From NCBI GenBank assembly GCA_964016885.1, contig CAXHJY010000264.1:62001-126000 (forward strand): a DNA stretch of 64,000 nt, given 5' to 3'. Position 1 is the stretch's first letter. The number at the start of each line of letters is the position of its first letter. This stretch comes from Eledone cirrhosa (lineage: Eukaryota). Under the pieces are notes generated by a model that worked only from the letters and a program-made list of their open reading frames with translations, was not told the origin of the DNA and did no database searches. Shown here one piece after another: positions 109 to 20,900 of the stretch. A program made the position numbers and the translations under genes.

Positions 109-300
109 AATATATATATATATGTATATGTATATATATGTGTGTGTGTGTCAATGTGTATGTGTATATTAGAAAAGGGAAGTAAGGTTCTATAAAAAAC
201 AGTGGTGACAGAGTTCTCCAGTCTCTTTCTCAACAAGGAAGGTGAAAAAAACTTACCTCTTAATTTTTAGTTTTTAATTCTTTTTAATTGTACTACTCAA

Positions 301-954
301 CATTTGATTAGATGAATTTTACTAATACATCGTAACCAGTAATACTTTATATACGTTATATACATTATAAAACTCTTTTTTAAAATAATTGTCCCTCTTA
401 TTTTTTCAATGTCATCTTTTAAATAATATCACTTTGACGAATCAAAGAAAGGGAAAAAAAGAAAAACAGACCCTAAAATATATTTTCCGTGCTATTTCCA
501 ACTTCACCTTTTCTCTCTCACTCACTCTCTCTCTCTCAATATATATATATATATATATTGTTATACTTGGGGAGGGTCATATTTTTGTAATATTGCCAGA
601 AATAACAGAACACACTCACTGTTTCGTTGGTTTTCGCTTCTGTATCTTTTATATCGCTATAGTTAATTTAACTGGCAATCAATGTTTATTACTGATTGAT
701 CAGCGGTTAAAAATACGGATATAAATATATATATATATAGTCTGTCAAAGTTATTTTGTCACACATCTGTGACACAGAGGCAAGAATAAATAAATACATT
801 AATAAAAATGGCGTAGACAATACAATAGAACGGGAGGAAACATAATAGTACCACTGATGATGTCACAGTGAGTGTGTTTTTATTATTATTTCTGGCAATA
901 TTATAATAATATGACCCTCCCCAAATATAACAATAATATATATCTATATATAAT

Positions 955-1014
<60 letters not shown>

Positions 1015-1436
1015 GAAGTTGGAAATAGCACGGAAAATATATTTTAGGGTCTGTTTTTCTTTTTTCCCTTTCTTTGATTCGTCAAAGTGACATTATTGAA
1101 AAGATGACATCATTGAAAAGAAGGGCGGTGGATTGGCAGTATCGGTAGAGGGTCGGACGCCATGCTTTCCAGCATAGTTACGTCCCTTTGCGGTCTGAGT
1201 TCAAATCCCACCGAGGTTGACTTTGCCTTTCATCCTTACAGGGTCGATAAAATAAAGTACCAGTAATGTACTGGGTTATTGATGGCCTTGTGCCAAAAGT
1301 AGAAACAATTATTGAAAAGATGACATTATTGAAAAAATAAGAGGGACAATTCTTTTAAAAAAGAGTTTTATAATGTATATAACGTATATAAAGTATTACT
1401 GGTTACGATGTATTAGTAAAATTCATCTAATCAAAT
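301..1436. repeat. Long inverted repeat: arm 301-622 versus arm 866-1436 (right arm interrupted by a SINE)
   Basis: TTTGATTAGATGAATTTTACTAATACATCGTAACCAG pairs with CTGGTTACGATGTATTAGTAAAATTCATCTAATCAAA. The internal (CT)n/(AG)n and (AT)n tracts are mirrored. Confidence 0.92.
1121..1307 (+). mobile_element. tRNA-derived SINE with ~28-bp target-site duplication
   Basis: A-box-like TGGCAGTATCGG and B-box GAGTTCAAATCC. Second copy at 13708-13895. ATTATTGAAAAGATGACATYATTGAAAA occurs at 1092-1119 and 1308-1335. Confidence 0.85.
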
Positions 1437-1499
1437 ATGGTGTCACATTGCGAGAGATCCAGGTCGGGAATTGTGTTTTGCTCACACAGAACTAATTTT

Positions 1500-2395
1500 G
1501 GCTGTGTTTCTATGGTGGGATGCCCTTCCTAATGCCAACCACATTTACTGTGTGTACTGGGTACTTTTTGTCATGACACCTACATGACCACTTTACAGTG
1601 TGGACTGGGTGCTTTTTGTTGTGGTTCAAGGATGACCACTTTATGGTATGTGTTGGGGACTTGTGGGTGGGGTGGGGAAGATGCATGGGAATTGGGGAAG
1701 CAAATATGGGGGAGGAGTGATGGATAGGAAGGTGGTGCATACTAGATGTAGGCCACAGATCACGGTCCTGTCTCATCACCATAGAGAGATGTAATTGTGC
1801 AAGGTCAGCTTTTATCACCCCATCCCACGTCTTCCTTGGCTTGCACCTTTTTATACAGCTGTCATCCTTCATACGTATCACAAGTCCATACCAATATAAT
1901 CTCCTCTCCTGCACACTGTATCTGATCCCTCTTATGTCTAGTTTCTCTCTCAGTTCATTTAAGCTTTGCTGTTCATGTATTGCACATCCATCAATGTGTG
2001 GAATCTTTATTTCTTTCCAATCTTAACAGGTCTTCAGTACCCAAGTCTCGCTGCTGTCCAACATTCTTCTTCATATACATGCATCATACTGTCTGCCTTT
2101 TGTTTTGAGGGGAACACCTTTTTAATTAGCAGCAGTTGTAACTCCCTGAACTTCCTTTAACCCGTTCTTACTCTGGCTACTGTGCTTTTGGAACATCCTT
2201 CTCCACTGCTAATTTGGTCACCCAGGTAACAAACTATCTACTATATCTACAGAGCTCCATATGGATATTTAAAGGTGTTTGTATCCTGAGAGCTACTGCA
2301 ACTTACTGCCCCTGTGCATCAGCCACATGTAAAACCTACGTTTTTTTGTTATCCTGCCTGAGATCCCACTACATCTCTTGTGTACCCATAGTTTG
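1500..2395 (-). mobile_element. Decayed RTE LINE 3' fragment
   Basis: Minus-strand ORF ERRLYWYGLVIRMKDDSCIKRC..PRKTWD is homologous to the C-terminus of 18290-21568. 3' UTR motif rc GGATGCCCTTCCTAA at ~1520. Confidence 0.85.
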
Positions 2396-2514
2396 CATAC
2401 ATACATATACATACATACATACATGTGTGTGTGTTTATCCCGGGTTCAATCAGGAGTAACCACAGTAAGGTACTCAATACATAATAGAGTGTGTACAATA
2501 TATAATATAGAAAT

Positions 2515-2566
2515 GGCTTCTACAGGACTAGAACTGTTTTATTCGAAGGAAATCATTAGGAAAGCC
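2515..2566 (-). ncRNA. Degenerate type I hammerhead-ribozyme-like motif
   Basis: Minus strand GGCTTTC-CTAATGA-TTTCCTTCGAAT-AAAA-CAG(TTCTAGTC)CTG-TA-GAAGCC. Helices I and III are present; both core boxes carry a G>A change. Confidence 0.45.
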
Positions 2567-2586
2567 TTGATGATTTCCTAAAACGA

Positions 2587-2927
2587 CATAGGTGAGAGTT
2601 ATAGCAACAACATGATAGGACTGGGGTCCCTATCATTAAAATAATCAAGAAAATTCCTCTAAGATAGAACTTGTAGGGAGCCAGCTAAACCTAGATAGCT
2701 GTGAACTGTAACAACAAGGTAAGATTGGGGTCCCTATCATTAAAACACCCAAGAAACCTCCTATGATATATAACCTTGTAGGAGACGAGCTAAACCTACA
2801 TAGGTGTGAACTGTAAAAACAACAATATGGTAGGTCTGGGCTTTCTATCATTAAAACATCCAAGAAACCTATGAGATACTTTGTATGAGGCCAGCTAAAC
2901 CTACATAGGTTTGAGTTGTAACAACAT
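2587..2927. repeat. Diverged tandem repeat, ~3 copies of a ~105-110 bp unit
   Basis: Recurring TGGGGTCCCTATCATTAAAA..CAAGAAA..CTTGTAGG..AGCTAAACCTACATAGGT. Confidence 0.85.
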
Positions 2928-3269
2928 AGCAGATAGTTTCTACCAACCTTATTTCACTTACAAAAGCCTTAGTCAACTGGAAGCTATGTAGAGATCTAGT
3001 AGCATTATATTTGTTTTAAATTGCTTTTTTTTGTTTTTTGTTGTTTCTTTTTCATGAAGACATAAGTCTGATTAAGAATCCAAACTAGGTCGTGGGTTGG
3101 GTTTGGTGAAAAACATTCTGTCACATGCATCCAAAATATTTCCTATATCATCATCATCAACTATAATTAAATAATGTAATTAGCATATTCATGTGCACAC
3201 ACACTCACACAAATAAACACACACACAAATGACCCCCCCCCCCCCCCCATATATATATATATATATATA

Positions 3270-3830
3270 TATAAGCTAGAGAGAGGATGTGTTAGAAAAA
3301 GTTCAGGGGCTACTACCGGTACTAACTACAAAAATGAAGAGTAGATTGTATGATATGTGTATATGAAGAGTAGATTGTATGATATGTGTATATGAAGAGT
3401 AGATTGTATGATATGTGTATATGAAGAGCAATGTAACACAGCAGTGAGACCTGGGCACTGTGTGCAGAAGATCTGAGAAGATTGGAAAGAAATGAAGCTT
3501 CCATGATCTGATGGAAGTGTAATAATAATATACATGAACAGCAAAGAGTAAGTGAATGAACTGAGAGAGAAATTAGGTATAAAAGGGATCAAATGCAGTA
3601 TGCTGGAGAGGAGATTGTGTTGGTATGGACATGTGATGTGTTTGTAGGATGACAGCTATATAAAAAGAAACAGTGCACTCAAAGTTGATGGAAGTTATGG
3701 AAAAGGCAATAAAAGCTAACTTCACACAATTTCATCTCTCAAAGGCAATAATGACACAGGAATGAGATATCTGGTGTTAAGCAGTGCTGCAGAAAACCCA
3801 CCCACCAGCACAGGATGTAACAACATCTTG
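3270..3830 (+). mobile_element. Decayed RTE fragment with an internal 3x29-bp tandem duplication (3334-3427)
   Basis: Encodes SETWALCAEDLRRLERNEA. The unit ATGAAGAGTAGATTGTATGATATGTGTAT starts at 3334, 3363 and 3392. Confidence 0.82.
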
Positions 3831-5424
3831 TGGCCTCTAGTATACACCACATCTACACCCACCCCTCCAGTCTTAACGTTTTAGACACTAGTCCTTAATC
3901 AGAAGATAGAATAATAAGAAATTAAAAAAAGAAACAGAAAGATAAAGAGTGAGAAGAAGAAACATAACAAATACTTTTGGATAAAGAGCATGAACATGTT
4001 AGTCAGCCATGTGTATGTGTGTGTGTACATATGTAAGTGTATATACATATACTCAACACCTCACTGCCTTAGGCCTCATTTTGCACCATGGATCCACAGC
4101 CATTTGCACTAGTACTGAGCAGAATTGAATTTTCCACCTTGGAACTACTTTTCCGATTGAACTCAATTCCCCCCTAACAATTCCTATAACTTCCCTTTAT
4201 CCTTGCTCTCCCACACAACCACACACATACAACTCCAACCACCACACAATACACACCCAAATTTACAACATCCGTATATACCACCCAACACACATCAATC
4301 TCTGTACACATAACCATCAATGATACACTGTCTGATGCATGCACATGAATGTGCACATGCCACCAATACACATTCCAGGGCTCACGTCCATGTGTGCTTG
4401 TATCTCTTATGCACATGGCACTCAGTGCCGCGGCTGTTGTACCATCAATGTTGAATAACATTTACTCCATCTCCACCATTTCCCAACTCTACACAGTAAC
4501 TTCACACTCTATAGCTTAGCTGTTTATGGTTGCACCACTATATCGTTGAATCCGAAGCAAAGCAGCTTGACGAAGCAACATGGCGAGTGGAGATATGCTG
4601 CACTGAAAAGTACCCATCCAACTGAGGCAATCATGGAAAAACAAAAATAAAAATGATGATGATGATGATGATATGTCTGTGGGCATGTTGCATGTATGTG
4701 TGTGTGAGGTAGAGAGAGAGAAAGGGGAGGAAGGGAGAGGCTTCCATACAGTTTCTGCTTACCAAATTAGAGTGGCAAGACATTGGTTAACCAAAGTCTA
4801 TGGTTCTGCACAGAGGAATTGAAATCTGAATCATGTGGTTTAAAAGCCAAACTTCTTAATCATAAAGCTAGCAATATTTGTTCTAAAATTCTAGTACTCA
4901 ATTTTTCACAGCTCGAAGGAGAAACTTTACTTTTTCCTGTCTCTCAATAAACATATCCTGTTCTATTTAAAAGAGGATTTAGACAACAAAGTTGTCAGAT
5001 TTAATACAATTTCTTATGTATACAGAAAAATTAGAACATTTATTTATTTATTAAGTCAAATCCTGTTTGTCTTTATTTTGGCATATTAGCCAAACATCAT
5101 CACCATAATCGATATTTTAATATTGACGATGGATCACCCAACTCTTATAAGTGGTTGAGTATTCCACTAACTTATGCCCCCTTATATTGATTTTGTTTGG
5201 AAATTATGATGAGACAATATGTGACAAGAATGGACTTTTGAATTACAGCTACAATCCATCCAAAGGACTTCCACACAGTTACTATCAACTGAATTTCACT
5301 TACAAGTTTTTGGAGGACCCAAAGATATGGTAAAAACACTTTTCCAGAATAATATGAAGTGAGATTGGACCTAAAACCTTATGCTTTTGAAGTGAACTTA
5401 ACCACGCGCATGCGTGCGTGTGTC

Positions 5425-5700
5425 AAATAATGGTAGTTAAGATGGGGGTTAAATTATCATAGTTGTTTATTGCATTATAAATATTTGTTACATGGTTATT
5501 CATGTGACTTCATCAGATGTTTACGACATTTGCCAAACTACTTCACCACTGGATGGACATACATTGCCACCAACATATCACAATGATTATATAATTGCAC
5601 AAATGATTGCGTAAGCATCTGACGAAGTCACATGAATAACCATGTAACAGATATATATATAATGTAATAAACAATTATGGTGATTTAACTACCAATATTT
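5425..5700. mobile_element. Fold-back element with a degenerate hammerhead motif in each arm (putative inverted Penelope-type pLTR pair)
   Basis: Arms ~5425-5532 and ~5600-5700. Right arm: CAT-CTGACGA-AGTCACATG(AATAAC)CATGTAAC..TATATA-TA-ATG. The left arm reads CTGATGA on the minus strand. The GAAA box is decayed. Confidence 0.6.
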
Positions 5701-5850
5701 CATAAATAAATACTCTGTCACTGAATATCACCTACCTGGGATAAACTACTGGCGTGGAGTGCTTTGGGTCGGTAGGACCTGTTTATTATCAGGAAGCTAC
5801 AACGTAACAAATAAGGTAAACAACACTCTCATACAACTATATATATATAT

Positions 5851-6125
5851 ATTCAAAATATTAACAAAATAGATATTCTTGTGATCAAGTATATTTTATT
5901 ATACATATTTCAGAGGTACTGAGTTAAGTTCAACAGTACGTCCTCATCAGATAAAATAAGATGATGCATGACATACCCTGACATAGTAGATGGTTAAGAT
6001 TCAGTCATGGTAGTGAATCTTATTTTATCTGAAGACGTACTGTTGAACTTAACTCAGTACCTCTGAAAAATATATAATAAAATATACTTGATCACAAGAA
6101 TATCTATTTTGTTAATATTTTGAAT
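5851..6125. mobile_element. Fold-back element, arms 5851-5962 and 6017-6125, with a hammerhead motif in each arm
   Basis: Arms are near-identical reverse complements starting at a (TA)n tract. Minus strand 5958-5892: TATTTTAT-CTGATGA-GGACGTACTG(12)CAGTACCTCT-GAAA-TATGTA-TA-ATAAAATA. Confidence 0.78.
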
Positions 6126-6136
6126 TAATATTAAAT

Positions 6137-6521
6137 ACAAAGTAAAACCTACTACAGTCAGTAGGCATCTCTAACAAAATACACCCCCGTCCCACCACCC
6201 CCACCCCATCGACACCGCCCCTTTCAATGTAAAGTTATGTTGGTGTCACAACATCCAGCCCGAAACAAATGAGGTCGTGTAGGTGTCACAACAAAAAAAC
6301 ACACAGTCCACGCTGTAATGTGGCCATGTAGGCAACACGGTAAAAACCTCCCAGCCCCACACTGTAAATGTGGTTGGTGTTAGGAAGGGCATCCAGCTGT
6401 AGAAAACCCGCCAGACAGTCCTATGCGAGCAAGACAACCACTCTTGCCTCAAGTGGGAAAACTCCCATCCAAACCCATGCAAGCGTGGAACATGGACGTT
6501 AAACGATGATGATGATGATGA
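6137..6521 (+). mobile_element. RTE 3' UTR-only truncated copy
   Basis: Highly similar to 17497-17875; ends with (GAT)n. Confidence 0.88.
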
Positions 6522-6859
6522 TTAATAACTCTGGAAAACCTTTTTCAGTTGAGTGCTTCCAATCTATTGTAAAACTCATACTTTGATGTATTCATTGGAC
6601 CTTGTTTAGCTTTTAAATATATATATATATATATCATATTGCTGGTCCTTCATCAGTTTCAACAATGGGTATTCTAGTTATTTGATCAACTGTATAACCT
6701 CCTCATGAAATTAACATGTAAGTGTTCCATAGACACATGTACCTTTCATGCAATTATTAAGAAGATTCAATGACAAACTGTGTGACAAGGCTGGCTATAT
6801 GAAATACAGGTACAACTCATTTTTTCCAGTCGAGTTATTGGAGCACCTACAAATATAGT

Positions 6860-7051
6860 GTCCTATCCCATACATCTCTTTTGTACCCAAGATCTGCATT
6901 GTGTATATTTTATAGAATTTATGCCAACTCCTTTTCTACATATCGAACATGGCCATTTCCCTGATGGAATCGGAGTTTTGTCCTCCTTTCAACTCATCAA
7001 CGCTTTTGTCTTAGCTAGGTTCACTCTCAGTCCTCTTGATTCCAACTGCTG
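6860..7051 (-). mobile_element. RTE internal fragment (finger region)
   Basis: Closely matches 22705-22895 (QQLESRGLRVNLAKTK..PSGKWPCSICRKG). Confidence 0.8.
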
Positions 7052-7086
<35 letters not shown>

Positions 7087-7164
7087 GGAGGTGAGTTTTA
7101 TTGTAGTACAATAAAGCAATGCAGATATCGGATAAGAAGCACTCTACAGTTTGTAGGACTGGAG

Positions 7165-7479
7165 TATACATAATATATAAGAACAAAAGATGGTTAAAAG
7201 AGTTCCATGTATTTTATTATGCGCATTTCAAAAACAAATATCATCATGCAATAATATTTGTGTTTTCATCAGATAAAACAGGAAGACATGATATGAAGGT
7301 TAAAAAACACTTGTGGATAGTGCTGATTTAAAACTGCACTATCCACAAGTGTTTTTTAACCTTCATATCATGTCTTCCTATTTTATCTGATGAAAACACA
7401 AATATTATTGCATGATGATCTTTGTTTTTGAAATGAGCATAATAAAATACATGGAACTCTTTTAACCATCTTTTGTTCT

Positions 7480-7492
<13 letters not shown>
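7165..7492. mobile_element. Near-perfect hairpin element (arms ~7165-7323 and 7336-7492, 12-nt loop) with hammerheads in both arms
   Basis: The arms are reverse complements with few mismatches; the right arm runs into (TA)n. Confidence 0.85.
7379..7449 (+). ncRNA. Type I minimal hammerhead ribozyme (mirror copy at 7210-7280, minus strand)
   Basis: TATTTTAT-CTGATGA-AAACACAAA..TTTGTTTTT-GAAA-TGAGCA-TA-ATAAAATA: 8-bp helix I and intact core boxes. The mirror copy has a palindromic TGCGCA helix III. Confidence 0.78.
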
Positions 7493-7510
<18 letters not shown>

Positions 7511-7511
<1 letters not shown>

Positions 7512-8762
7512 CATCATCATCGTTTAAAGTTCATCTTCCACGCTTGCATGGGTTTGGATGGGAATTTTCCCACTTGAGGCAAGATTGGTTGTCTTGCTCG
7601 TATAAGACTGTCTGGCGGGTTTTCTACGGCTGGATGCCCTTCCTAACACCAACCACGTTTACAGTGTGGACTGGGAGGTTTTTACTGTGTTACCTACACG
7701 GCCACATTACAGCGTGGACTGTGTGTTTTTGTCGTGACACCTACACGACCTCATTTGTTTCGGACTGGATGTTGTGGTACCAACATAACTTTACATTGAA
7801 GGGGAGGGGGGTGTATTTTTGTTAGAGGTGCCTACTGACTGTAGGTTTCGCTTTGTACTTAGGCAAAGCGGGTCTTCTGTATTACTGTGTAGCGCCAAAG
7901 ATCTCGGTCCAGTGACATTACCTTGTAGAGGTGTAAGTGTGTGAGGTCGGAATTTATCAAGTCGTCCCAGGTTTTTCTGGGTCTGCCTACTCTGTGACTA
8001 CCGTCTATTTTTATCGCCCTGCACTTTTTTATACAGCTGTCGTCTTTCATGCGCATCACGTGACCATACCAACGTAGTCTTCTCTCGAGTAAACAACATC
8101 TGATCCCTCTTATTCCTAATTTCTACCTTAGTTAGTTTATGCTTTGCCGTTCACGTATATTACTATTACACATCCAGCGGAGCATGCAAGCTTCGTTCCT
8201 CTCCAGTCTGCGTATATCCTCTGCACACAATGCCCAAGTCTCACTGCCATACAACATTGCTGTTCGTATGCAGGCATCATACAGCCTGCCTTTCATTTTT
8301 AGAGAGAACCCTTTAGCGGCCAATAGTGGTATAAGCTCTCTGAACTTTTCCATCCCGTTCTGACTCTAGCTACTGTACTTTCAGAGCACCCTCCCCCACT
8401 GCTGATTTTGTCACCCAGGTAACAGAAGGTGTCCACTATTTCTATAGAACCATCTGGGCAATGGAATGAGCTAGTATTCTGTGGGCACTTGCTGCTACTT
8501 ATTGCACCAGAGGACCGGCCACATATAAAATCTATATTCTTAGTTAGCTTACCTGTGATCGCACTACATCTTTTATGTACCCATACTTTGCATTTGGGAC
8601 ATAAAATGGAGTTTCTGCCTACTCCTTTCCCACACACTGAGCATGGCCATTTCCAAGATGGGACCGGTGCTTTCCCTCCTACAAACTAGAACTTTAGTCT
8701 TAGCCAGGTTAATTGTAAGGCCTTTTGATTCTAGGCCATGCTTCCGGGCTGGGAATTTCTTC
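7511..8762 (-). mobile_element. 5'-truncated, frameshifted RTE copy of the same family as 17939-21922
   Basis: ORF pieces 7859-8059, 8132-8353 and 8299-8637 are nearly identical to the long ORF's C-terminus. (ATC)n tail at 7511. Confidence 0.92.
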
Positions 8763-8880
8763 CATATATATATGGAAGAAATTCCATATATATATATATA
8801 TATAGTGAAAAATTGAACGGGAACAAAACAGAGAGGCAGTACAAACAAAGGTTTATTAGTTTCACGTTCTTGAGAGTGGG

Positions 8881-8907
<27 letters not shown>

Positions 8908-8915
<8 letters not shown>

Positions 8916-9408
8916 TAAAATAACAGATTAAAGTTTAAGCAAAGAATCGCTGCTTTCACCCTTAACGGAATCTTCTGAAACTAACAAAGTCTACGACTTC
9001 TGCTATACCATTTACGTGGTTTTGTCTTTGCGTGCTATTGTTCTCCATGCTCCACATATGACGTATTATCTTCCTTTTTTTCGTTCATTGCCAGAGAACG
9101 TCTCTATGAACCACCTAATAGAATATTAGTCTACGACTTCTTTTATACCATAAACGTGGTTCTGTCTTTGCGCGTAATTGTTTTTCACCGCTCCTATTAA
9201 TGACGTATTATTCGTTTTTTTCCCGTTCTTTGCCAGCGAACGTCACCATGAACCAAAGTATCGTCTTCCTGTCTTCCTCCGGTTGCAACGTTTTTTTAAA
9301 TATCCACTTCTACGTTTACAGATTGACTTTGTTAGTTTCAGAAGATCCTGTTAAGGGTGAAAGCAGCGATTCTTTGCTTAAACTTTAATCTGTTATTTTA
9401 ATAAATAT
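8908..9408. mobile_element. Fold-back element: ~84-bp terminal inverted repeats (8908-8991 / 9325-9408) with a hammerhead-like motif and an internal ~140-bp tandem duplication
   Basis: Right arm: AGTTT-CAGAAGA-TCCTGTTAAGGGT-GAAA-GCA(9)TGC-TT-AAACT. Internal repeats begin GTCTACGACTTC at 8989 and 9129. Confidence 0.72.
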
Positions 9409-9444
9409 TTGCTCTAGGGTTCTTATATATTTGATATATATTTA

Positions 9445-9558
9445 TCGCTTGCAATCAAAAGGTTGTGAGTTCAATTCTCAGACCGGGTGATGTGTTGTTT
9501 CCTTGAGCAAGACACTTTATTTCACATTGCTCCAGTTTACTCAGCTGTAGAAATGAGA
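9445..9558 (+). mobile_element. tRNA-derived SINE fragment (second family)
   Basis: B-box-like GAGTTCAATTC followed by CCTTGAGCAAGACACTTTATTTCACATTGCTCCAG; reverse-complement homologue at 23720-23788. Confidence 0.7.
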
Positions 9559-9569
9559 TGATAGGGACT

Positions 9570-9750
9570 GGGGTCCATATCATTCCACTGCAAAGTGGTC
9601 GTGGAGATGCCACGGCAAAAAAGCACCCAGCACTCACTGTAAATGAGGTTGGTGTTAGGAAGGGCATCCAGCTGTAGAAATCTAGCCAGAATCAGTTCCC
9701 GTCCCACCCTTGCAAGCAGGGAAAAGCGGACGTAAAATGATGATGATGAT
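9570..9750 (+). mobile_element. RTE 3' UTR fragment (second subfamily)
   Basis: Shares CACCCAGCACTCACTGTAAATGAGGTTGGTGTTAGGAAGGGCATCCAGC with 12498-12547. Its terminus matches the rc of 21995-22052. Confidence 0.8.
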
Positions 9751-9879
9751 ATATATACATATATATGTATATATTTATATATATATATCATCATGATCAA
9801 CATCATATGTCCGCTTTTCCCTGCTTGCTGCCCATGTCTCACTACCATGCATCATATAACTGATATATATATATATATA

Positions 9880-12180
9880 GGAAAAAATATGACCCCGACG
9901 GCAGAGCTCAAGCCGTTTCGACGGCTATTTCTGGACTAAATTAAAACTTTTAGCCTGGTAAATAAATAGCAGAACTTGTCAAGGGGGTACTTCCTTATAT
10001 GGGAAGATTGTTGTTGTCGAGAGGATTGGTCAAAATTTGTTGTAAACACAAATAAGTCTATCATGGCATTTGGTGGGAGGTAGGGGTGGCTGAACTTGCC
10101 TGTAGAACAGTGAGGGAGTGAGTGGAGCCGGTCAAGCGTTGAAAGTGAAATCTATACAGCAGATTCTAAGGATAGTGTAAGAAAAGTCAAAAAAGTGTTC
10201 TGGGGAAAATGGAGGAGGGAGGTTATAGAATAAGTAAGTCAGATGAGAGTAGGAGACAATAAAAAATAATAGAAAGAAATATAAAAAAAAATATATATAA
10301 AATTAGATAGTGAGAAATGAATAAAAAAACAAACAAAAACAGTAGAGTCTAGAAACTGCTCTAATTAGTAGGTGTTGCTTGTACGGCCAAAGCTATAGAA
10401 AAGGTTAATAAGTTGAGAATGGAAAATACTAAATAAGAAATTTTGAAATTGTAGAATTGAAGTAGTAAGAAAAAAGATACCAAAATACAGGGGTCTAACA
10501 CATCTGCTATAAATAGTTAGTAAAGCGTAATCGGCCAATTCTATCTTAAAATTACAGGGGTGGGGGTACTGAGGCTATAGCGGACCGATGGGCTGCATCG
10601 GGGTAGACAAAAGGGGAAAAACAGACTAGGAGGAAGATCGGGGGTGGAAGGAAGTGATAGGATGAGACGGGGGGAAGAAGAAAACTTAGGAAAAGAAAAG
10701 CAGTACGTATGTCTACCTATGTAAGCTGGGGTTTCCTCTAACTTATTCGGCAAGTGGGGGGTATCAGCCCTTGTCTACCCACCCGGGTCGTTATGGGGTT
10801 TGAGGGTGAGGTAAGTCCTACGCAATCTGTGTTTGCATGCAGTTACCAGTTCGTCTTTCTTGTTTAGGAGTTGGTCCTTCGAAAACAGCATTTGTAATGT
10901 TTCCTCCGAGCATAAGTTACACGGACAGCGTCCTCCCGTGCAAGAGTTAGCTCTGGACAGTAAGCTCCAAGTGAGATTGTATATTATTATCTTTGCGGTC
11001 CCAGATGTGGCCCAAAAGTGTAGTGGCATGTTGCCGGACCGGGTTTCGGAAAGTATGTCGGTGTTGGTAGAGCCGGATCTTGAAGTCACAAGCGGTTAAT
11101 CCTATATAAGCTTTGTTGGAGGTGTCCGTCCTCACATTGCACTGGTAGATCACGTTACGTTCTCGGCATCTGTTGTTAAGGAGGCACATAGATCTATCAG
11201 GGCAGTTACACCTCCTGGTGGACTCTCCACTGATGTCTAGGTTGTTTCTTCCATAGGGGTTGAGATTTTTGTTGTTTGAGGAGACGGTGTTTTGTGCGAA
11301 GTTAGGTGTGGTGCTGTAGGAGAGTTTGATGGTGTTTTTGTTGATTATGTTGTGGTAGCGGTGTTGTAGTGGGAAGTGTTTTTCGAGGAGCCTAAAGAAG
11401 ATTTTCCCAATAGGTGTTGCCACCTCGGCATTGTGGGGAGGATAAAACCACGTTACGTTGCGTGAGCAGCGGTGTCGCTTGCTGGTGCCGCTAAGCGAAG
11501 CTGGATATATGGATATTTCCTCCCGAAAGCCACTCCGCTTGGTTGTAATGAAGCGCATGTTCGTTGAATATCTGCTCATTAGCGGACAAACGAGATATGC
11601 GGGAGATGTTTTTAACCAGGTTATTGGTGATGTTTCTAGGATGGTTAGAGCGGCGGTGGATGTAGTGCAGGTTGTCGTTTGGTTTCCTGTATGGGTAGTA
11701 CAGATCATTTTCTAGGTTAAGTGTAACGTCCAGGAAATTAACTCAGGTTAGGGACGTTTGTAGGGTGATTTTAAATCCCCAGTCCCGGAAGAAGATGATT
11801 AGTTGTTTACGGACCCGGTCTGTACTACTGGCATTGTACTCTTTGAGGGTGAGGAGCCCATCATCTCGGTACAGTCCACCACCGAATGCAGGAAACATTT
11901 CGGTGAGTTTAAATAGTAGGAATAATCCTATAAGATCTGTAACCTCGGCCGATTCCGTCGCACCCATACTCACGTCGAAGGGGGAGTCGGGAGCTCTCTT
12001 TATCCACTTGGAGTTGTCGAAAAGTAGGACTGTCTTCCTGGCGTGGAGAATGATATTTCTTTCCTGGTCAGTGATGGGTGTGAGTGTTTCGGCAAAGTCC
12101 AAGGTGGCCGTAAGGAGTGGTAAGGTAATTCATACATAGTAACTCTCTATGTCAAACTGGATGAATTTTGTGTCTCGTTT
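9880..12180 (-). mobile_element. Decayed, 5'-truncated Penelope-like element (RT + GIY-YIG endonuclease, 3' hammerhead)
   Basis: Minus-strand peptides FIQFDIESYY, VSMGATESAE, GLYRDDGL and NFLDVTLNL (RT); CNC..C linker; VIYQC..AYIGLT..FKIRLYQH (GIY-YIG). Broken by frameshifts and stops; the 3' end abuts (TA)n at 9863-9879. Confidence 0.9.
9891..9990 (-). ncRNA. Type I hammerhead ribozyme, U3-A8 core variant, at the Penelope 3' end
   Basis: Minus strand ACCCCC-TTGACAA-GTTCTGCTATTT..AAATAGCCGTC-GAAA-CGGC(TTGAGCTCT)GCCG-TC-GGGGT. Predicted GUC cleavage between 9897 and 9896. Confidence 0.75.
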
Positions 12181-12681: not shown

Positions 12682-13707
12682 ACACCCGGATGTAACGCAT
12701 GCGCAAACTAAGTACACAAAACACAAAAACAAAATGGTGGAGGACAGAGAACAAAGGAGAGACACACAAAATATAAACCTAGTCACTGAGCAGGTCACAG
12801 AATGTGTGACAAAAGAGTTTTGACAATATATAAATAACCTTCCTGCTATCGAACCAACCAACCATAAATTTATAATAAATTGAAGTGAAAACCAACAGGT
12901 GTGTGTGTTTTTATTGGCAGCATGACCCTCCCAAAGTATAACAATATATATATATATATATATAAATAGTTCAAGGATAAAACATAAAAAAATCAAATAT
13001 AAAAACACGATCTATTCTTTTGGCCAAATTTTTTTGTTGATAATTTCCAGATTAAGTAAAGTATTGAACAATAAGTAAAACATATCTTAGTAGGCCTGAG
13101 CGATATAATTCATTTGAAGGTTAAAGTTCTATATTGCTGTAGAGATACAGTATTATCTCGTAATATCCTATCATGATATTTAGCAAAGAATATATTTTAA
13201 AATGTGTTTGTTAATTCAAATGTTTATAGTATCTTTACTAGTGAACAGTTTGTTGTGAAAGTAAAGACTAATTTTTAAAGTCATTGTTATGTTTTATATT
13301 TGCTAATCTCATTTCATGAGATACTGTCGGGTCTGAAATAACGTGTGTGTTGGGGAGGGGGTGGCTCAGTAACTTTTTTAGGTTGTTTCCGCTGATATTA
13401 TAAAAAACCAGAATTAGTCATTTAGTTTACATATTGAGACCTCAACCCATCCTATTTATTTTATAATGTATTGGATTTCTAGTAATGCACTTTTTTTTTG
13501 TTACGTACAATGTTTTTTAATGTCTAAGGAAAATTAAGTGTTACAAGAATGCTACCACTTAAAATAAAATTCCGCCAGAGATAGATTAGCAACAATAAAT
13601 TAACAGAGGGGCACACTGAAAAACTATGGGGGTTAGGGCGATTATTTGAGACTCAAGAGTACAGAACATTAAGAAACAAAATAAAAAATAGATCAACTGT
13701 ACATTTT

Positions 13708-15019: not shown

Positions 15020-16856
15020 TTACGGCATCCAGGGACTCCAGGCACCTCATTACAAAGGTTGACATGAGGAATGCCTTCAATTGCATATGCTGGGACCATC
15101 TGCTCGAGGCCTGCCTCAGCCAAGCCCCCACTGCCTACCCACTGGCCTACCTATCATATGCTCCTTGCTGCTGATACAGTCATACCTTCAGCCACTTGGG
15201 TCCAACAGGAGGGGCGATCCTTTGGACGCCCCTCCTGTTTGCCCTTGGTATAGACCACATCGTCCGGAGTATCACAGCCCCTCTCAACGTTTGGTACCTG
15301 GATGATGCTACGTTGGGTGGGCTTGTGGAGACTGTCTGCCATGACCTACAATCGGTGGTTCCTGCCAGGGCAGCAATCAGCCTCCAGGTCAACTTGTCCA
15401 AGTCTGAGGTGGTGAATATCAACTATGATGCTGAGAGCTTTGCAGCCTCCGTCTCGGACGTGCGGTCCATTCTCCACCAGGTACAGGTGACCCCTAAAGA
15501 AGATATCCTCATCCTCGGGTCACCGATCCACCTGCCAGCCATCCACTCCACCATCAGGTCCAAGCTTCAACAACTCCAGACTCTCATGTGCAACTGGGCT
15601 TGATTGACGGCCACCCAGCTCTCTTCCTGTTGAGGAACTGTTTCGCCATGCCAAAACTCCTCCATACTCTTTGCAGCGCTCCGTGCTAACAGCCACGCAT
15701 CTCTCCTCACTGACCTCGACACTTGTATCCGAACAGCAGCTGAGGAGATAAGTAACGTCAGGTTTGACGACATTGGGTGGTAACAGGCCACCTTACCCAT
15801 TAAATATGGTGGCCTTGGCCTGCGTTTCTTTCATCGGTAAACTCATGCCGCGTCCTCATCAACAAGGTTCTTTTAAAAACAATGGAACCTACTGTGATCG
15901 AAGAATATGAGGTCACCTGCGAAACGTGGGACCGGCTTGGACTTAGCCCAGTAGATGTCCCTTTCCTCCTGCTGATGTCAAATCCCCCCAAAGTATTTGG
16001 GATGCTGCCCAATGCGCCTGGCCTCAGACAGGCTAGCGCGCCAGCTCGACCAGCACTGCTTTGCACATTCTTGCATGGCCTCACAGCCCCACAGCAGTGA
16101 CTGGCTCCATGCCTTACCCTCCTTCTCCACTGGCACGCAGCTGGACAATGATAGCCTGAACATCAGAGTTTCCCTGAGGCTTGGCCTCCAGATCTGCGAT
16201 CCACACAAATGTCACTGCGGATCCACCATGTACTCTTTTGGCCTCCACCCACTTTCCTCTCGCTATAGTACCAGCCGCCTTCCACGCCATGCTGCCCTCA
16301 ACGAGTCATAAAGCATGGTTTGGATGCTGCAAGCTTCCCGTCCCAGCTCAAGCCAGTGGGGCTGGACTGAGAGGACGGCAAAAGGTCAGATGGCATGACC
16401 ATCTTCTCGTTCCGTGGTGGCAAACCCCTCGTCTGGGATGCCACTTGTGGCGAGACTTTCTGCAGCTGCAACCTGGTGCAGTCTTTGACTGACCCAGGTC
16501 GGGCTGAGGAGGCCAAACTCTCCAAGTACCGGTCGCTCGCCGACAGGTTCGCGTTCATGCCATTGGCAGTGGAGAATTCTGGTGTCCTTGGCCCTAGGGT
16601 TACCTCCCTACTTACCACCATAGGCGTTAAGCTGGCCAGCCACAGGTGTGAGCCTCCCGAGATGGAATGGCTCCGGGGAAACACCTTCTCCATCCTGTCC
16701 ACCGGGGCTGTGGGGAGGCCAACACATGGGACCCCATTTGATCACCATAAAGAGAGATGGGGAGGGCGAGAGAGATGGAGGCGATGACAGTGGGAGTTCG
16801 GCTCTTCTGTGTTCCGACCTGGTGCGCAGCATCAGTTGTCCATAGGGAGGAAGTGA

Positions 16857-17196: not shown

Positions 17197-17875
17197 ACAC
17201 GTGAACGGCAAAGCATAAACGAACTAAGGAAAAAATTAGAAATAAGAGGGATCAGATGTTGTTTACTAGAGAGAAGGCTACGTTGGTATGGACACGTGAT
17301 GCGCATGAAAGACGACAGCTGTATAACAAAGCGCAGGGCAATAAAGATAGACGGTAGTCACGGAATAGGCAGACCCAGAAAAACCTGGGACGAGCTGATA
17401 AACTCCGACCTCACACACTTACACCTCTCCAAGACAATGTCACTGGACCGAGACCTTTGGCGGTACTCAGTAACAGAGAAGACCCGCCTTACCTAAGTAC
17501 ATAGTAAAACCTACTACAGCCAGTAGGCATCTCTAACAAAATACACCCCCGTCCCACCACGCCACCCCGTTCTATGTAAAGTTATGTTGGTGCCACAACA
17601 TCCAGGCCGAAACAAATGAGATCGTGTAGGTGTCACGACAAAAAAACACACAGTCCACGCTGTAATGTGGCCGTGTAGGCAACACGGTAAAAACCTCCCA
17701 GACCCACACTGTAAATGTGGTTGGTGTTAGGAAGGGCATCCAACTGTAGAAAACCTGCCAGACGGTCCTATGCGAGCAAGACAATCACTCTTGCCTCAAG
17801 TGGGACTACCTCCGTCCAAACCCATGCAAGCGTGGAACACGGACGTTAAACGCTGATGATGATGATGATGATGAT
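17197..17875 (+). mobile_element. 5'-truncated RTE copy directly upstream of the full-length element
   Basis: Near-identical to 21258-21922; retains the native stop (..KTRLT*). Confidence 0.92.
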
Positions 17876-17938: not shown

Positions 17939-20900
17939 TTTTTTTGTTATCTATTTAAGGTTTAAATACGGTGTTTTTGTCGGTGTAAGGTTTAAATACG
18001 GTGTTTTTGTCGTATTGAACAGAACAAATCTTGCAGTTTTGCTTTTTGTTAAATCGCTTGTTAAACATTCATAACCTTCCAGCTAGCTACCCCACACCCC
18101 TCCCACCCGCCCCCACACACCACCCGCCCCCACACACCACCATACTTAATACGTGGACCAATCATAAGCCAGAGCCCCCCCCCCACGCATCACCATTATT
18201 ATTATAAGCCAGAGCCCCCCCCCACCCCCACGCATCACCATTATTATTATTACGCGGACCAATCATAAGCCAGAGGCCTATACTATCGCTTGCCCGGTTG
18301 CCTTCGATATATGATGGATGGATGGACGGACTGCGGAATCCTGGAGAGTGGATGGGAGAGAAAAATCTGGACGCTCAGAACGAAAATGCCAAAGTTAAAG
18401 TCAAATTCACCTCGTGGACGAGAATGCGAGCACTCCTCTTTGTTTCGTCCGCGGATGGCTAACGTAACCCTATCTCCCCCCGCCCCCCACCACCCCCACC
18501 CTCCAAACGCAACCCAAAACTTCAGAGTTGGTACCATAAATGTAGGCACCCTAAAGGGTCGCGCTAACGAGGTTGTAGAAATGCTTGAACGTAAGGAGGT
18601 CGATGTTTGTTGTATTCAAGAGACCAGGTGGAGGGGTGGGTCTGCTAGATTCATTGAGGGTAAAAAACGATGTTATAAGCTTTTCTGGGTGGGAAACGAC
18701 GATGGGCTGGGTGGAGTAGGAATCATGATAGCAGAAAAGTGGGCAGATAAGATAATAGACGTAAATAGAGTGAACGACAGAATAATTAAAATAAGACTTG
18801 TCCTCAATAGAACTACGGTGACAGTAATATCTGCGTGCGCACCCCAATCCGGACTGCCCGGCACTATAAAAGACAGATTCTATGAGACACTGTTGCTAAC
18901 TACCTCCCAAATATCTGACCGTGACTATATAATTATTGCAGGCGACCTAAATGGTCACGTTGGACAACATTGTGACGGCTACGACGAAATCCATGGAGGC
19001 TATGGGTTTGGTACTAGAAATGAGGAAGGCTCCAGAATCCTGGAATTCTGTGATGCAAATAACCTAACTATCTGTAACACTAACTTCAAAAAACGTGACA
19101 ATCACCTGATCACCTATAGATCAGGGGAACACACAAGCCAGGTAGATTATATCCTTACCAGAAGACGTGACAGAGTGTCTGTTGTAAACACTAAATCCCT
19201 CCCCCATGAAAAATGCACCTCCCAACATAGACTGATAATTAGCGACCTCATAGTCAGGACGAGACGTACTCGACAGCAGAAGAGGACTATCCTCAGGAGG
19301 AAAATATGGAAACTAAAGGACCTCACAGCCAGAAATAAATTTCAAAGCATATTACTTGATGCTTTCGACAGTAAGGAAGAGCATCTAGAATCGGACAATA
19401 TAGAGGGACAGTGGGAATTTCTGAAAGCAAACCTGCTGTTGGCGACAGACGAAGTCTGTGGCTGGAGCAGGCCTGTAGGCAGGAGGAGAGTAACATGGTG
19501 GTGGAACAGTAGGGTGGAGGGGTCAATTAAGGCCAAAAAGCAGGCTTGGAAAGTATGGCGGGATGGGGGAAGTAGAGTAGACTATCAAGTGGCCAGGAGG
19601 GAAGCCAGGAGAGAAGTGTACTTAGCAAGAAGGGAAGCTGAGGAAAGAAAGTTCAAGCATGTTCTACAACGCGATGACCAAAAACGTGAGGTGTTCAGGA
19701 TTGCCAGGCAATGCGTCAAGGAAAACCGTGATATTGTCGGGGAGAAGTGTGTACTTAACGATGATGGCATACTTGCCATCACCGACACTGATAAGAAGGT
19801 AGCTTGGAAGTGTCACTATGAAAGGCTACTAAATGAGGAGAATAAATGGGAGAAAGACAGTCTCCCCCATATCGACCCGATAGAGGGACCAGCAGTGTTA
19901 GTCGAGGGGAGTATAATAAGTAAGGCAATCAAGGATATGAAGACGGGTAAGGCGGCTGGGCCTTCGGAAATAGTTGCTGAGATGCTGAAGGCATCTGGCA
20001 CGGTGGGACAGACCATGGTCACCCGCATAGTTAACCAAGTCGTACAGAATGGGGTTGTTCCGAAGGACTGGCATAGCAGCATCATCGTTAACTGTTATAA
20101 GGGTAAAGGAGACGCCCTAGATAGGAGTAACTATAGAGGCATTAAATTAATCGACCAGGTCATGAAGGTCACGGAAAAAGTAATAGCGCAACTAATCAGA
20201 GAGAGAATTGACCTAGATGAAATGCAGTTCGGGTTTGTGTCGGGCAAAAGCACCACAGACGCTCTTTTCATAGTACGACAACTACAGGAGAAGTACCTAG
20301 CTAAAGGTAAACCCCTCTACTTAGCTTTTGTCGACCTGGAGAAAGCCTTCGACAGAGTCCCCCGCTCCATTATCTGGTGGGCTCTTAGAAAACTAGGCGT
20401 TGACGAATGGCTTGTGAGGGCTATACAAGCCATGTATAAAGAAACAGTCAGCAAGGTTAGAATTAACAACGAATATAGTGAAGAGTTTAGCGTAAAAGTT
20501 GGCGTCCATCAGGGCTCTGTTCTCAGCCCCCTACTATTTATTATTGCCCTTCAGGCTATAACAGAGGAGTTCAAGACAGGATGCCCAAGGGAACTCCTAT
20601 ACGCAGACGACCTGACACTCATAGCGGAATCAATGGCCGAGCTAGAGAAGAAATTCCAAACATGGAAGCACGGCCTAGAGTCAAAAGGACTTAAAATTAA
20701 CCTGGCTAAGACCAAAGTTCTAGTTTGTAGGAAAGAAAACAAGGCGGTGGTCCCTTCTGGGAAATGGTCGTGCTCGGTGTGTAGGAAAGGCGTAGGTAGA
20801 AACTCCATTTTATGTCCTAAATGCAAAGTATGGGTGCATAAAAGATGTAGTGGGATCACAGGTAAGCTAACTAAGAACATAGATTTTACATGTGGCCGGT

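What the first reader, a model, noticed from the sequence alone, without database searches (positions are those of the whole stretch)
5425..9408. Cluster of short fold-back elements carrying paired, outward-facing hammerhead ribozymes
Seen: four inverted-repeat elements within 4 kb (5425-5700, 5851-6125, 7165-7492, 8908-9408) that differ in sequence but share one architecture. Each arm reads outward as helix I - CTGANGA-like box - helix II - GAAA-like box - short helix III - NUH - helix I', then a ~25-45 nt tail; three of the four abut (TA)n. None codes for protein. Established: Penelope-like elements carry minimal type I hammerheads in their pseudo-LTRs and often have an inverted pLTR at truncated 5' ends. 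Inference: these are several families of non-autonomous or ultra-truncated Penelope derivatives. They would look like MITEs to repeat annotators but move via RNA. A transcript from either strand would contain one sense ribozyme plus its antisense, so cleavage would compete with long-hairpin (dsRNA) formation.
Basis: partly seen in the sequence, partly recalled or inferred. Interest (0 to 1): 0.85.

Follow-up and report, generated by a model that had tools for sequence, protein, structure and literature searches.

The report
Fold-back stubs of Penelope-like retroelements
Four short hairpin-shaped repeats are really there, three carry back-to-back hammerhead ribozyme motifs and are likely the truncated, head-to-head ends left by Penelope-like jumping genes, an arrangement already described in other animals, while the fourth is uncertain.

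Summary
The four fold-backs are real (arms 89-98% identical). Hammerhead motifs are clear in elements 2 and 3: three perfect-core type I motifs, none in 60 of 60 shuffles. Element 1 lacks GAAA here, but most related reads have it. Element 4 has a U4A core and scores at chance level (4 of 40 shuffles). All four are multi-copy repeats. Related copies show other junctions, and element 3 has an 80-nt one-sided tail ending at (TA)n. That matches Penelope-like (PLE) insertion: two 5'-truncated 3' ends joined head-to-head in TA microsatellites. Opposite-strand minimal hammerhead pairs 100-700 bp apart were reported in 2014 (PMC4209133), inverted pLTRs with tails in 2013 and 2021, and this scan noted the same pattern in two shark-type genomes. 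A link to an RT/GIY-YIG gene, cleavage and expression were not shown. In a read-through RNA the hairpin would swamp the ribozyme rather than compete with it. One lead remains: element 3's direct copy starts at 7324 in all three listed joints, hinting at a defined short unit. Verdict: new members of a known kind, modest interest.

The parts
5430..5697 (.). E1, oldest fold-back; arms about 5430-5525 and 5610-5697
   Evidence: 89% arm identity excluding gaps; alignment; not next to a TA run
5472..5520 (-). E1 left degenerate hammerhead motif (CTGATGA core, GAAA box damaged, 3-bp helix I)
   Evidence: read from sequence; missed by scans
5615..5665 (+). E1 right hammerhead motif (CTGACGA ... GATA, palindromic TATATA, UA)
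   Evidence: majority letter at 5652 is A, giving GAAA: 79 contigs, 159 of 190 raw reads
5838..5852 (.). (TA)n run at the left end of E2
5853..6016 (-). E2 longer copy (arm plus 'spacer')
   Evidence: X8 record 17 matches 5863-6016 with 5 differences, X5 record 9 matches 5866-6016; both stop at 6016 and run on unlike
5892..5958 (-). E2 minimal type I hammerhead, perfect core, 8-bp helix I, helix III hexamer TATGTA
6017..6123 (+). E2 inverted, more 5'-truncated copy; hammerhead motif 6021-6084 with a 3-nt deletion
7053..7083 (.). (TA)n run at the tail end of E3
7084..7164 (-).
   Evidence: high depth in bin 7024-7160; joints 7113|7324 and 7121|7324 tie it to the family; absent from the right arm
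7165..7323 (-). E3 left arm; hammerhead 7210-7280 with palindromic TGCGCA helix III
   Evidence: self-duplex of helix III -11.1 kcal/mol
7324..7494 (+). E3 right (direct) copy including the 12-nt centre 7324-7335; hammerhead 7379-7449
   Evidence: 7324 is the start of the direct copy in all 3 listed E3-internal joints
7487..7511 (.). (TA)n run at the right end of E3
8884..8911 (.). (TA)n run at the left end of E4
8914..8991 (-). E4 inverted arm, hammerhead-like 8932-8982 (U4A), joined to the interior by a 4-bp overlap at 8988-8991
8988..9402 (+). E4 interior (140-bp partial tandem, 81%) and right arm with hammerhead-like 9334-9384 (U4A)
   Evidence: interior is multi-copy and matched in organism E with 5-8 differences; motif at chance level
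9881..12130 (-). Context, not part of the four: broken PLE (RT YRDD, CxCX5C linker, GIY-YIG-like end) whose 3' end carries a degenerate type I hammerhead-like fold (9893-9986) and abuts (TA)n 9863-9879
   Evidence: ESM Atlas 0.95 to clusters with GIY-YIG on 17-18% of members; no Pfam hit; no DNA similarity to E1-E4

Best explanation
E2, E3 and likely E1 are each two 3' ends of one repeat family joined head-to-head, each end carrying a minimal type I hammerhead motif, and they were likely laid down by a Penelope-like retroelement as dead-end, heavily 5'-truncated insertions, two of them beside TA runs. Shown: the fold-backs, the motifs, multi-copy status, E3's one-sided tail, other junctions in related copies. 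Inferred mechanism: the PLE protein nicks both strands of an AT-rich target and primes two cDNAs, each starting just downstream of the ribozyme, one at the outer start site (with tail) and one at the inner site (without). Both stop early and their inner ends are joined. This predicts outward-facing 3' ends, independent inner truncation of each arm, and an optional tail, as seen. The ribozyme motifs are passengers from the parent's pseudo-LTR, predicted to need dimerisation through the palindromic helix III, and predicted to be silenced in any read-through RNA by the long hairpin. E4 probably arose the same way (about 55%) but its motif is not beyond chance.
For: Perfect-core motifs 3 vs 0 in 60 of 60 shuffles; scores 12-18 vs shuffle maximum 10 of 40. 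Helix III hexamer is self-complementary in three different sequences (TGCGCA, TATATA, TATGTA with a G-U pair; chance about 0.019 per strict palindrome), and helix I differs between E1 and E2/E3 yet pairs in both. E1's GAAA is the majority state. Junction of E2 not shared by 2 of 2 listed spanning contigs; E3 relatives have inverted pieces of 30, 38 and 94 nt that hold only the outermost 3' end (joints 7113, 7121, 7177 to 7324), which a hairpin self-copy from the centre would not give. 4 of 8 ends at (TA)n vs 1.1% background. A PLE remnant with the same 3' geometry lies 500 bp away. Literature: opposite-strand min-HHR pairs tied to truncated PLEs (PMC4209133); inverted 5'-truncated copy plus one-sided tail (PMC8557442; PMC3846280); both strands nicked and extended, two internal RT start sites define the tail (PMC11167929).
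Against: No link of any of the four to an RT/GIY-YIG ORF was shown: no genome is held and the nearby PLE shares no DNA similarity with them. Rfam gives no hammerhead hit. Only 4 of 8 arms pass my scan, and the scan was built after seeing them. E3's tail is 80 nt, longer than the 30-40 bp described. All 3 listed E3 joints share the start 7324, and contigs carrying E3/E4 joints have summed depths of 103-311 against about 11 for a near-unique contig, which random one-off truncation does not predict. Only 15 of 545 joints, 12 of 401 joint fillers, 24 of 4467 loose ends, 40 of 549 variants and 24 of 102,968 pieces were shown, and the tool warns that joints at likeness under 95 or side under 30 often come from other repeats. 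Helix I is predicted at about 0 even in the single arms E2L and E3L (0.3-0.4 in E3R). The highly conserved G10.1-C11.1 pair is A-U in E3 and G-U in E2.
Confidence: 0.72

Rival explanations
1. E3 (perhaps E2) is a short non-autonomous PLE-dependent element, or a mass-produced solo pseudo-LTR, with a defined 5' end near 7324; some fold-back forms were re-amplified as units.
For: 7324 is the start of the direct copy in 3 of 3 listed E3-internal joints; 7177|7324 stands in 6 contigs (depth 103) and 64 raw reads from 2 starts; summed depth over E3 is 0.47-1.19 million vs about 11 for a near-unique contig. Unit length 170-250 nt is in the range of metazoan retrozyme monomers (PMC7229834 passages).
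Against: The laid stretch holds nothing 5' of 7324, so longer copies would also appear to start there; two of the three joints have 'between: not known'; sides are 21-28 letters. No head-to-tail tandem of E3 in the window. E2's junction is not shared by two contigs of other organisms.
Confidence: 0.2
2. E4 alone is a DNA-transposon MITE with about 80-bp TIRs, a variable internal tandem repeat and a TA target; its hammerhead likeness is chance.
For: U4A core and score reached by 4 of 40 shuffles; symmetric arms, 97% identical; interior is multi-copy and conserved in another organism; the 42 loose ends before 8988 resemble a further tandem unit, which a variable-repeat MITE would also give. Tandem-repeat MITEs are known from a clam (reference listing only).
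Against: The motif sits 23 nt from the end and faces outward as in E1-E3; with the stricter descriptor at most one such hit arose per shuffle, mean 0.017; the left arm joins the interior through a 4-bp overlap; other junctions lie inside the arms (8953|9336, 8968|9334, 8979|9353).
Confidence: 0.4
3. All four are ordinary MITEs or local inverted duplications, and the ribozyme reading is over-fitting.
For: Rfam gives no hammerhead hit; TA flanks also suit Tc1/mariner targets (recalled).
Against: (0 of 60 and 0 of 40 shuffles reach E2/E3); majority restoration of GAAA in E1; one-sided tail in E3; unshared junctions.
Confidence: 0.06

Closest known systems
Opposite-strand minimal hammerhead pairs from truncated PLEs in Schistosoma mansoni (Cervera and de la Pena 2014, PMC4209133; read parts 1-2 of 4)
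   Same: Minimal type I motifs, long helix II, palindromic helix III region, pairs about 100-700 bp apart on opposite strands, many divergent families per genome, attributed to truncated PLEs
   Different: Here helix I is 8 bp (4-5 bp there), helix II is longer in E3, 10.1-11.1 is A-U or G-U, and no parent ORF was found
Inverted pLTR plus optional tail of EN+ PLE insertions (Arkhipova 2013, PMC3846280, passages; Craig 2021, PMC8557442, passages and section 11)
   Same: Head-to-head inverted 5'-truncated copy, tail at one end only, palindrome at the junction, (TA)n bias for some clades
   Different: No ORF between the arms; tail about 80 nt rather than 30-40 bp; the joints favour two separate cDNAs over the self-priming reading of 2013
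Poseidon PLE of Anolis in vitro (Frangieh 2024, PMC11167929; read parts 1-2 of 4)
   Same: AT-rich target, both strands nicked and extended, RT starts downstream of the hammerhead at two sites that define the tail
   Different: That work does not show fold-back formation; its hammerhead needed protein and was dispensable for insertion
Metazoan non-LTR retrozymes (PMC7229834, passages; bioRxiv 10.64898/2026.07.22.740005, part 1 of 5 and passages)
   Same: Short, non-coding, type I hammerhead, proposed PLE-derived or PLE-mobilised
   Different: Retrozymes are head-to-tail tandems with same-strand ribozymes that release circles; these are head-to-head and cannot release a unit
MITEs
   Same: Short, non-coding, inverted arms, multi-copy, TA flanks
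   Different: E3's two ends differ by 80 nt, junctions vary, arms carry ribozyme motifs; E4 is not excluded

Membership tests
Minimal type I hammerhead of PLEs | CUGANGA and GAAA boxes, NUH, helix I closing both ends | tested here: met
   E2L, E3L, E3R perfect; E2R with deletion. E1 only by majority letter. Not met for E4 (U4A).
Minimal type I hammerhead of PLEs | Short palindromic helix III | tested here: met
   TGCGCA (E3L), TATATA (E1R), TATGTA with G-U (E2L); E3R, E2R and E1L carry a mismatch; E4 has a 4-5 bp stem instead
Minimal type I hammerhead of PLEs | G10.1-C11.1 pair | tested here: not met
   A-U in E3, G-U in E2, U-U in E4 in these copies; family majority at these places not among the 40 of 549 variants shown
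Minimal type I hammerhead of PLEs | Covariation among copies of one family | tested here: inconclusive
   Only between-family differences that keep pairing were seen; no copy set could be aligned (no genome)
Minimal type I hammerhead of PLEs | Self-cleavage, as a dimer | not testable with these tools
   Bench assay; predicted helix III self-duplex -11.1 kcal/mol for E3L, -2.8 for E2L
Rfam hammerhead families | Covariance-model match | tested here: not met
   No hammerhead family at E<=10 in 4500-10500, 7160-7500 or 9860-10060
EN+ PLE insertion | Inverted 5'-truncated copy head-to-head with the direct copy | tested here: met
   E2, E3, E4 arms with unequal inner ends
EN+ PLE insertion | Optional tail at one end | tested here: met
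   E3 7084-7164; longer than described; none identified for E1, E2, E4
EN+ PLE insertion | Ends shared with an RT + GIY-YIG ORF | tested here: inconclusive
   Only 23.8 kb could be searched; the one PLE there is unrelated in DNA
EN+ PLE insertion | AT-rich or (TA)n target, no fixed TSD | tested here: met
   4 of 8 ends at TA runs vs 1.1%; E1 has none; TSDs cannot be read inside TA runs
Non-LTR retrozyme | Head-to-tail tandem units with same-strand hammerheads | tested here: not met
   Motifs are on opposite strands; E4's tandem units carry no motif
MITE | Identical termini at both ends and a fixed structure across copies | tested here: inconclusive
   Not met for E3 (80-nt asymmetry) and E2 (junction not shared); open for E4

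The most novel reading that the evidence does not exclude
A defined 170-250-nt hammerhead-bearing unit (E3 family, 5' end at 7324) has been amplified by PLE machinery to tens of thousands of copies, either as a non-autonomous element or as strong-stop-like cDNA from internal initiation. It is inserted as dual-primed head-to-head pairs, some re-amplified as palindromes, so that a sizeable part of this genome's 'MITE/unknown' repeats are RNA-borne PLE products and a source of long hairpin RNA.
Probability: 0.2. Interest if true: 0.5.

Novelty: new member of a known kind. Interest (0 to 1): 0.3.

Why it matters
As it stands it is mainly an annotation point: these abundant fold-backs would be called MITEs or unknown, yet carry PLE marks. 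The junctions also bear on an open question named in PMC8557442, how PLEs form inverted structures. Inverted pieces that hold only the outermost 30-94 nt favour two separately primed cDNAs over hairpin self-priming, and thousands of such junctions in one genome would make that testable by counting. If E3's fixed 5' end holds up, it would show either a non-autonomous PLE passenger or run-off cDNA from the pLTR promoter.

Tried and rejected
Rfam scans: no hammerhead, only sub-threshold hairpin families. Genome-wide copy search impossible, no genome held. Pattern search for the E2/E3 motif: 0 in viral contigs, 1 in metagenomes; that locus, L001, has no helix II and no fold-back and was rejected as chance. 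Protein search for the neighbouring PLE, longer proteins only: none at E<=0.001 among 421 candidates; Pfam none. No RNA holder listed, which says nothing on expression. MAFFT alignment of six arms misaligned helix II, so no covariance model was built. A constrained dimer fold crashed and was replaced by a duplex energy. A 5' depth gradient over E4 appeared in X1 (about 700k, 400k, 300k) but not in X18, so it was not used. No ORF start in the tails. Tail and inner segments fold no better than z -2. The PLE's own 3' hammerhead-like fold scores 7, reached by 16 of 40 shuffles, so it counts by position only. Lunse 2017 was not held, so whether U4A is a known PLE variant is unchecked. Eight literature searches listed no paper on hammerhead fold-backs in cephalopods or on PLE ends mistaken for MITEs; supplements, Repbase/Dfam and the Zenodo library of PMC13282606 were not seen and may hold these families.
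Full report
Setting. The window is repeat-rich animal DNA: TA microsatellites, an RTE-like LINE with a 1099-aa ORF at 18269-21568 (the label RTE is recalled), and a 24/50-bp satellite from 23789 to the end. The SINE and LINE ends look octopus-like to me from memory; that was not tested. No whole genome is held.

Observation. All four fold-backs are present. Arm identities excluding gaps are 89% (E1), 97% (E2), 97.5% (E3) and 97% (E4). A type I hammerhead descriptor over 1-23800 returned five hits: perfect cores with 8-bp helix I at 5892-5958(-), 7210-7280(-), 7379-7449(+), and two one-mismatch hits in E4. Over 5425-9408 perfect-core hits were 3 against 0 in 60 of 60 dinucleotide shuffles. A relaxed scan scored E2L 18, E3L 17, E3R 16, E2R 12, E4 arms 9, and missed both E1 arms; the 40 shuffles peaked at 10, and 4 of 40 reached 9. 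Both scans were written after seeing the elements. Rfam found no hammerhead. Four of eight ends lie within 5 nt of a (TA)n run, against 1.1% of background positions.

Related copies. Four runs were laid on 5380-9460 at 80% likeness: contigs of the best holder (X1), raw RAD reads of the same species label (X18) and contigs of two other organisms (X5, X8). The tool shows only the best-supported rows (40 of 549 variants, 15 of 545 joints, 12 of 401 fillers, 24 of 4467 loose ends, 24 of 102,968 pieces) and states that summed depth is no copy number. Against about 11 for a near-unique contig (6643-6903), X1 depth is 1,300-3,500 over E1, about 190,000-210,000 over E2, 470,000-1,190,000 over E3 and 600,000-1,430,000 over most of E4. 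All four are thus multi-copy, E2-E4 strongly so. In E1, T5652 is A in 79 contigs (10516 of 10652 depth) and 159 of 190 reads, which gives GAAA followed by palindromic TATATA and UA. For E2, the two listed contigs from other organisms match the left arm and the 'spacer' up to 6016 and then run on unlike for 85-98 nt: the spacer belongs to the minus-strand copy, and the junction is not shared. For E3, 7084-7164 is multi-copy and joined to the family by joints 7113|7324 and 7121|7324; it is a tail present on the left arm only, ending at (TA)n. A third joint, 7177|7324, stands in 6 contigs and 64 reads from 2 starts. A joint 7245|5939 links the E3 and E2 families, which share helix I. For E4, 42 contigs continue past 8988 in letters resembling a further 140-bp unit, and other junctions lie within the arms (8953|9336, 8968|9334, 8979|9353).

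Mechanism. Each element reads as two 3' ends of one family, truncated independently at their inner ends: E2 164 and 107 nt, E3 240 and 171 nt, E4 78 and about 415 nt with a 4-bp overlap. Frangieh 2024 (PMC11167929, parts 1-2 of 4 read) showed that a PLE protein nicks and extends both strands of AT-rich DNA and starts reverse transcription downstream of the hammerhead at two sites that define the tail. I infer that two such cDNAs, stopped early and joined, give these fold-backs. The E3 joints, whose inverted pieces hold only the outer 30, 38 or 94 nt, fit this and do not fit self-priming from the centre; so does the fact that the tail is on the arm that lacks the 12-nt centre. These joints have short sides (21-28 letters) and the tool cautions about such rows. 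The ribozymes are inherited passengers. The palindromic helix III suggests dimer folding (E3L self-duplex -11.1 kcal/mol), as described for PLE hammerheads (PMC4209133; review PMC6765202, passages). In a read-through RNA the antisense arm comes first and helix I has a predicted probability of about 1e-51 or less; even single arms E2L and E3L give about 0, E3R 0.3-0.4. Activity at these loci is therefore unlikely.

Context. A broken PLE lies at 9881-12130(-): RT motif YRDD, a CxCX5C linker and a GIY-YIG-like end (Atlas 0.95 to clusters with GIY-YIG on 17-18% of members; no Pfam hit). CxCX5C and (TA)n targeting define the Hydra clade (PMC8557442 section 11). Its 3' end abuts (TA)n and holds a hammerhead-like fold that is not significant alone. 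It shares no DNA similarity with E1-E4, so it is not their shown parent.

Against my reading. No parent ORF was linked. Half the arms fail the scan. G10.1-C11.1 is absent in these copies. The tail is twice the described length. The recurrent start at 7324 and joint depths of 103-311 suggest more than one-off truncation, though the laid stretch cannot show sequence 5' of 7324. E4's loose ends and junctions fit a tandem-repeat MITE as well as a PLE product.

Known or new. Cervera and de la Pena 2014 (PMC4209133, parts 1-2 of 4) state that dual minimal hammerheads occur about 100-700 bp apart on opposite strands and are probably related to truncated PLEs. Inverted pLTRs with one-sided tails and junction palindromes are described in PMC3846280 (passages) and PMC8557442 (passages). 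The Octopus vulgaris repeat paper lists 31 recently active PLE families and does not discuss these structures in the two of three parts read (PMC13282606). Two earlier notes of this scan report the same pattern in shark-type genomes; they are unchecked AI notes and match the reading I had recorded before opening them. Eight searches listed nothing on such fold-backs in cephalopods; databases and supplements were not seen.

Verdict. Real; PLE-type for three of four; new members of a known kind. Interest 0.3. The boldest reading left is a defined short E3 unit mass-amplified by PLE machinery and mimicking MITEs (probability 0.2, interest 0.5).

Noticed in passing
window 9881-12130 (-): Broken, 5'-truncated PLE with the CxCX5C linker of the Hydra clade, long pyrimidine-rich 3' region, hammerhead-like fold with a full helix III 16 nt from a (TA)n end.
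   Followed up: partly
window 295-1443 and 556-935: Nested fold-backs without a detected hammerhead: outer arms 94-97% alike with a SINE-like insert at about 1110-1310 in the right arm, inner element with 67-71-bp arms (87%) between TA runs; its end recurs at 12922-12946 next to (TA)n.
   Followed up: partly
window 6140-6520 (+) and 7510-8750 (-): Two copies of the same LINE 3' end (93-94% alike) face each other tail-to-tail around E3; the right one ends in the same TA run as E3; family also at 17500-17870 and 18269-21920.
   Followed up: no
window 7475-7487 and 9419-9431: E3's short end and the sequence just right of E4 share 13 identical letters next to TA-like runs; may be chance or a shared end motif.
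   Followed up: no
window 7245 and 5939: A well-covered contig joins E3's outer arm to E2's core with 15 other letters between, suggesting a third family intermediate between them.
   Followed up: no
window 23789-64000: 40-kb satellite of 24/50-bp period at about 90% identity; the TE-dense stretch borders it.
   Followed up: no
window 15175-16790 (+): Decayed RT (YLDD) and restriction-like endonuclease fragments of another non-LTR element; clade not tested.
   Followed up: no
window 2578-2928: 105-bp tandem, 3.3 copies, 75% matches; no hammerhead hit.
   Followed up: no
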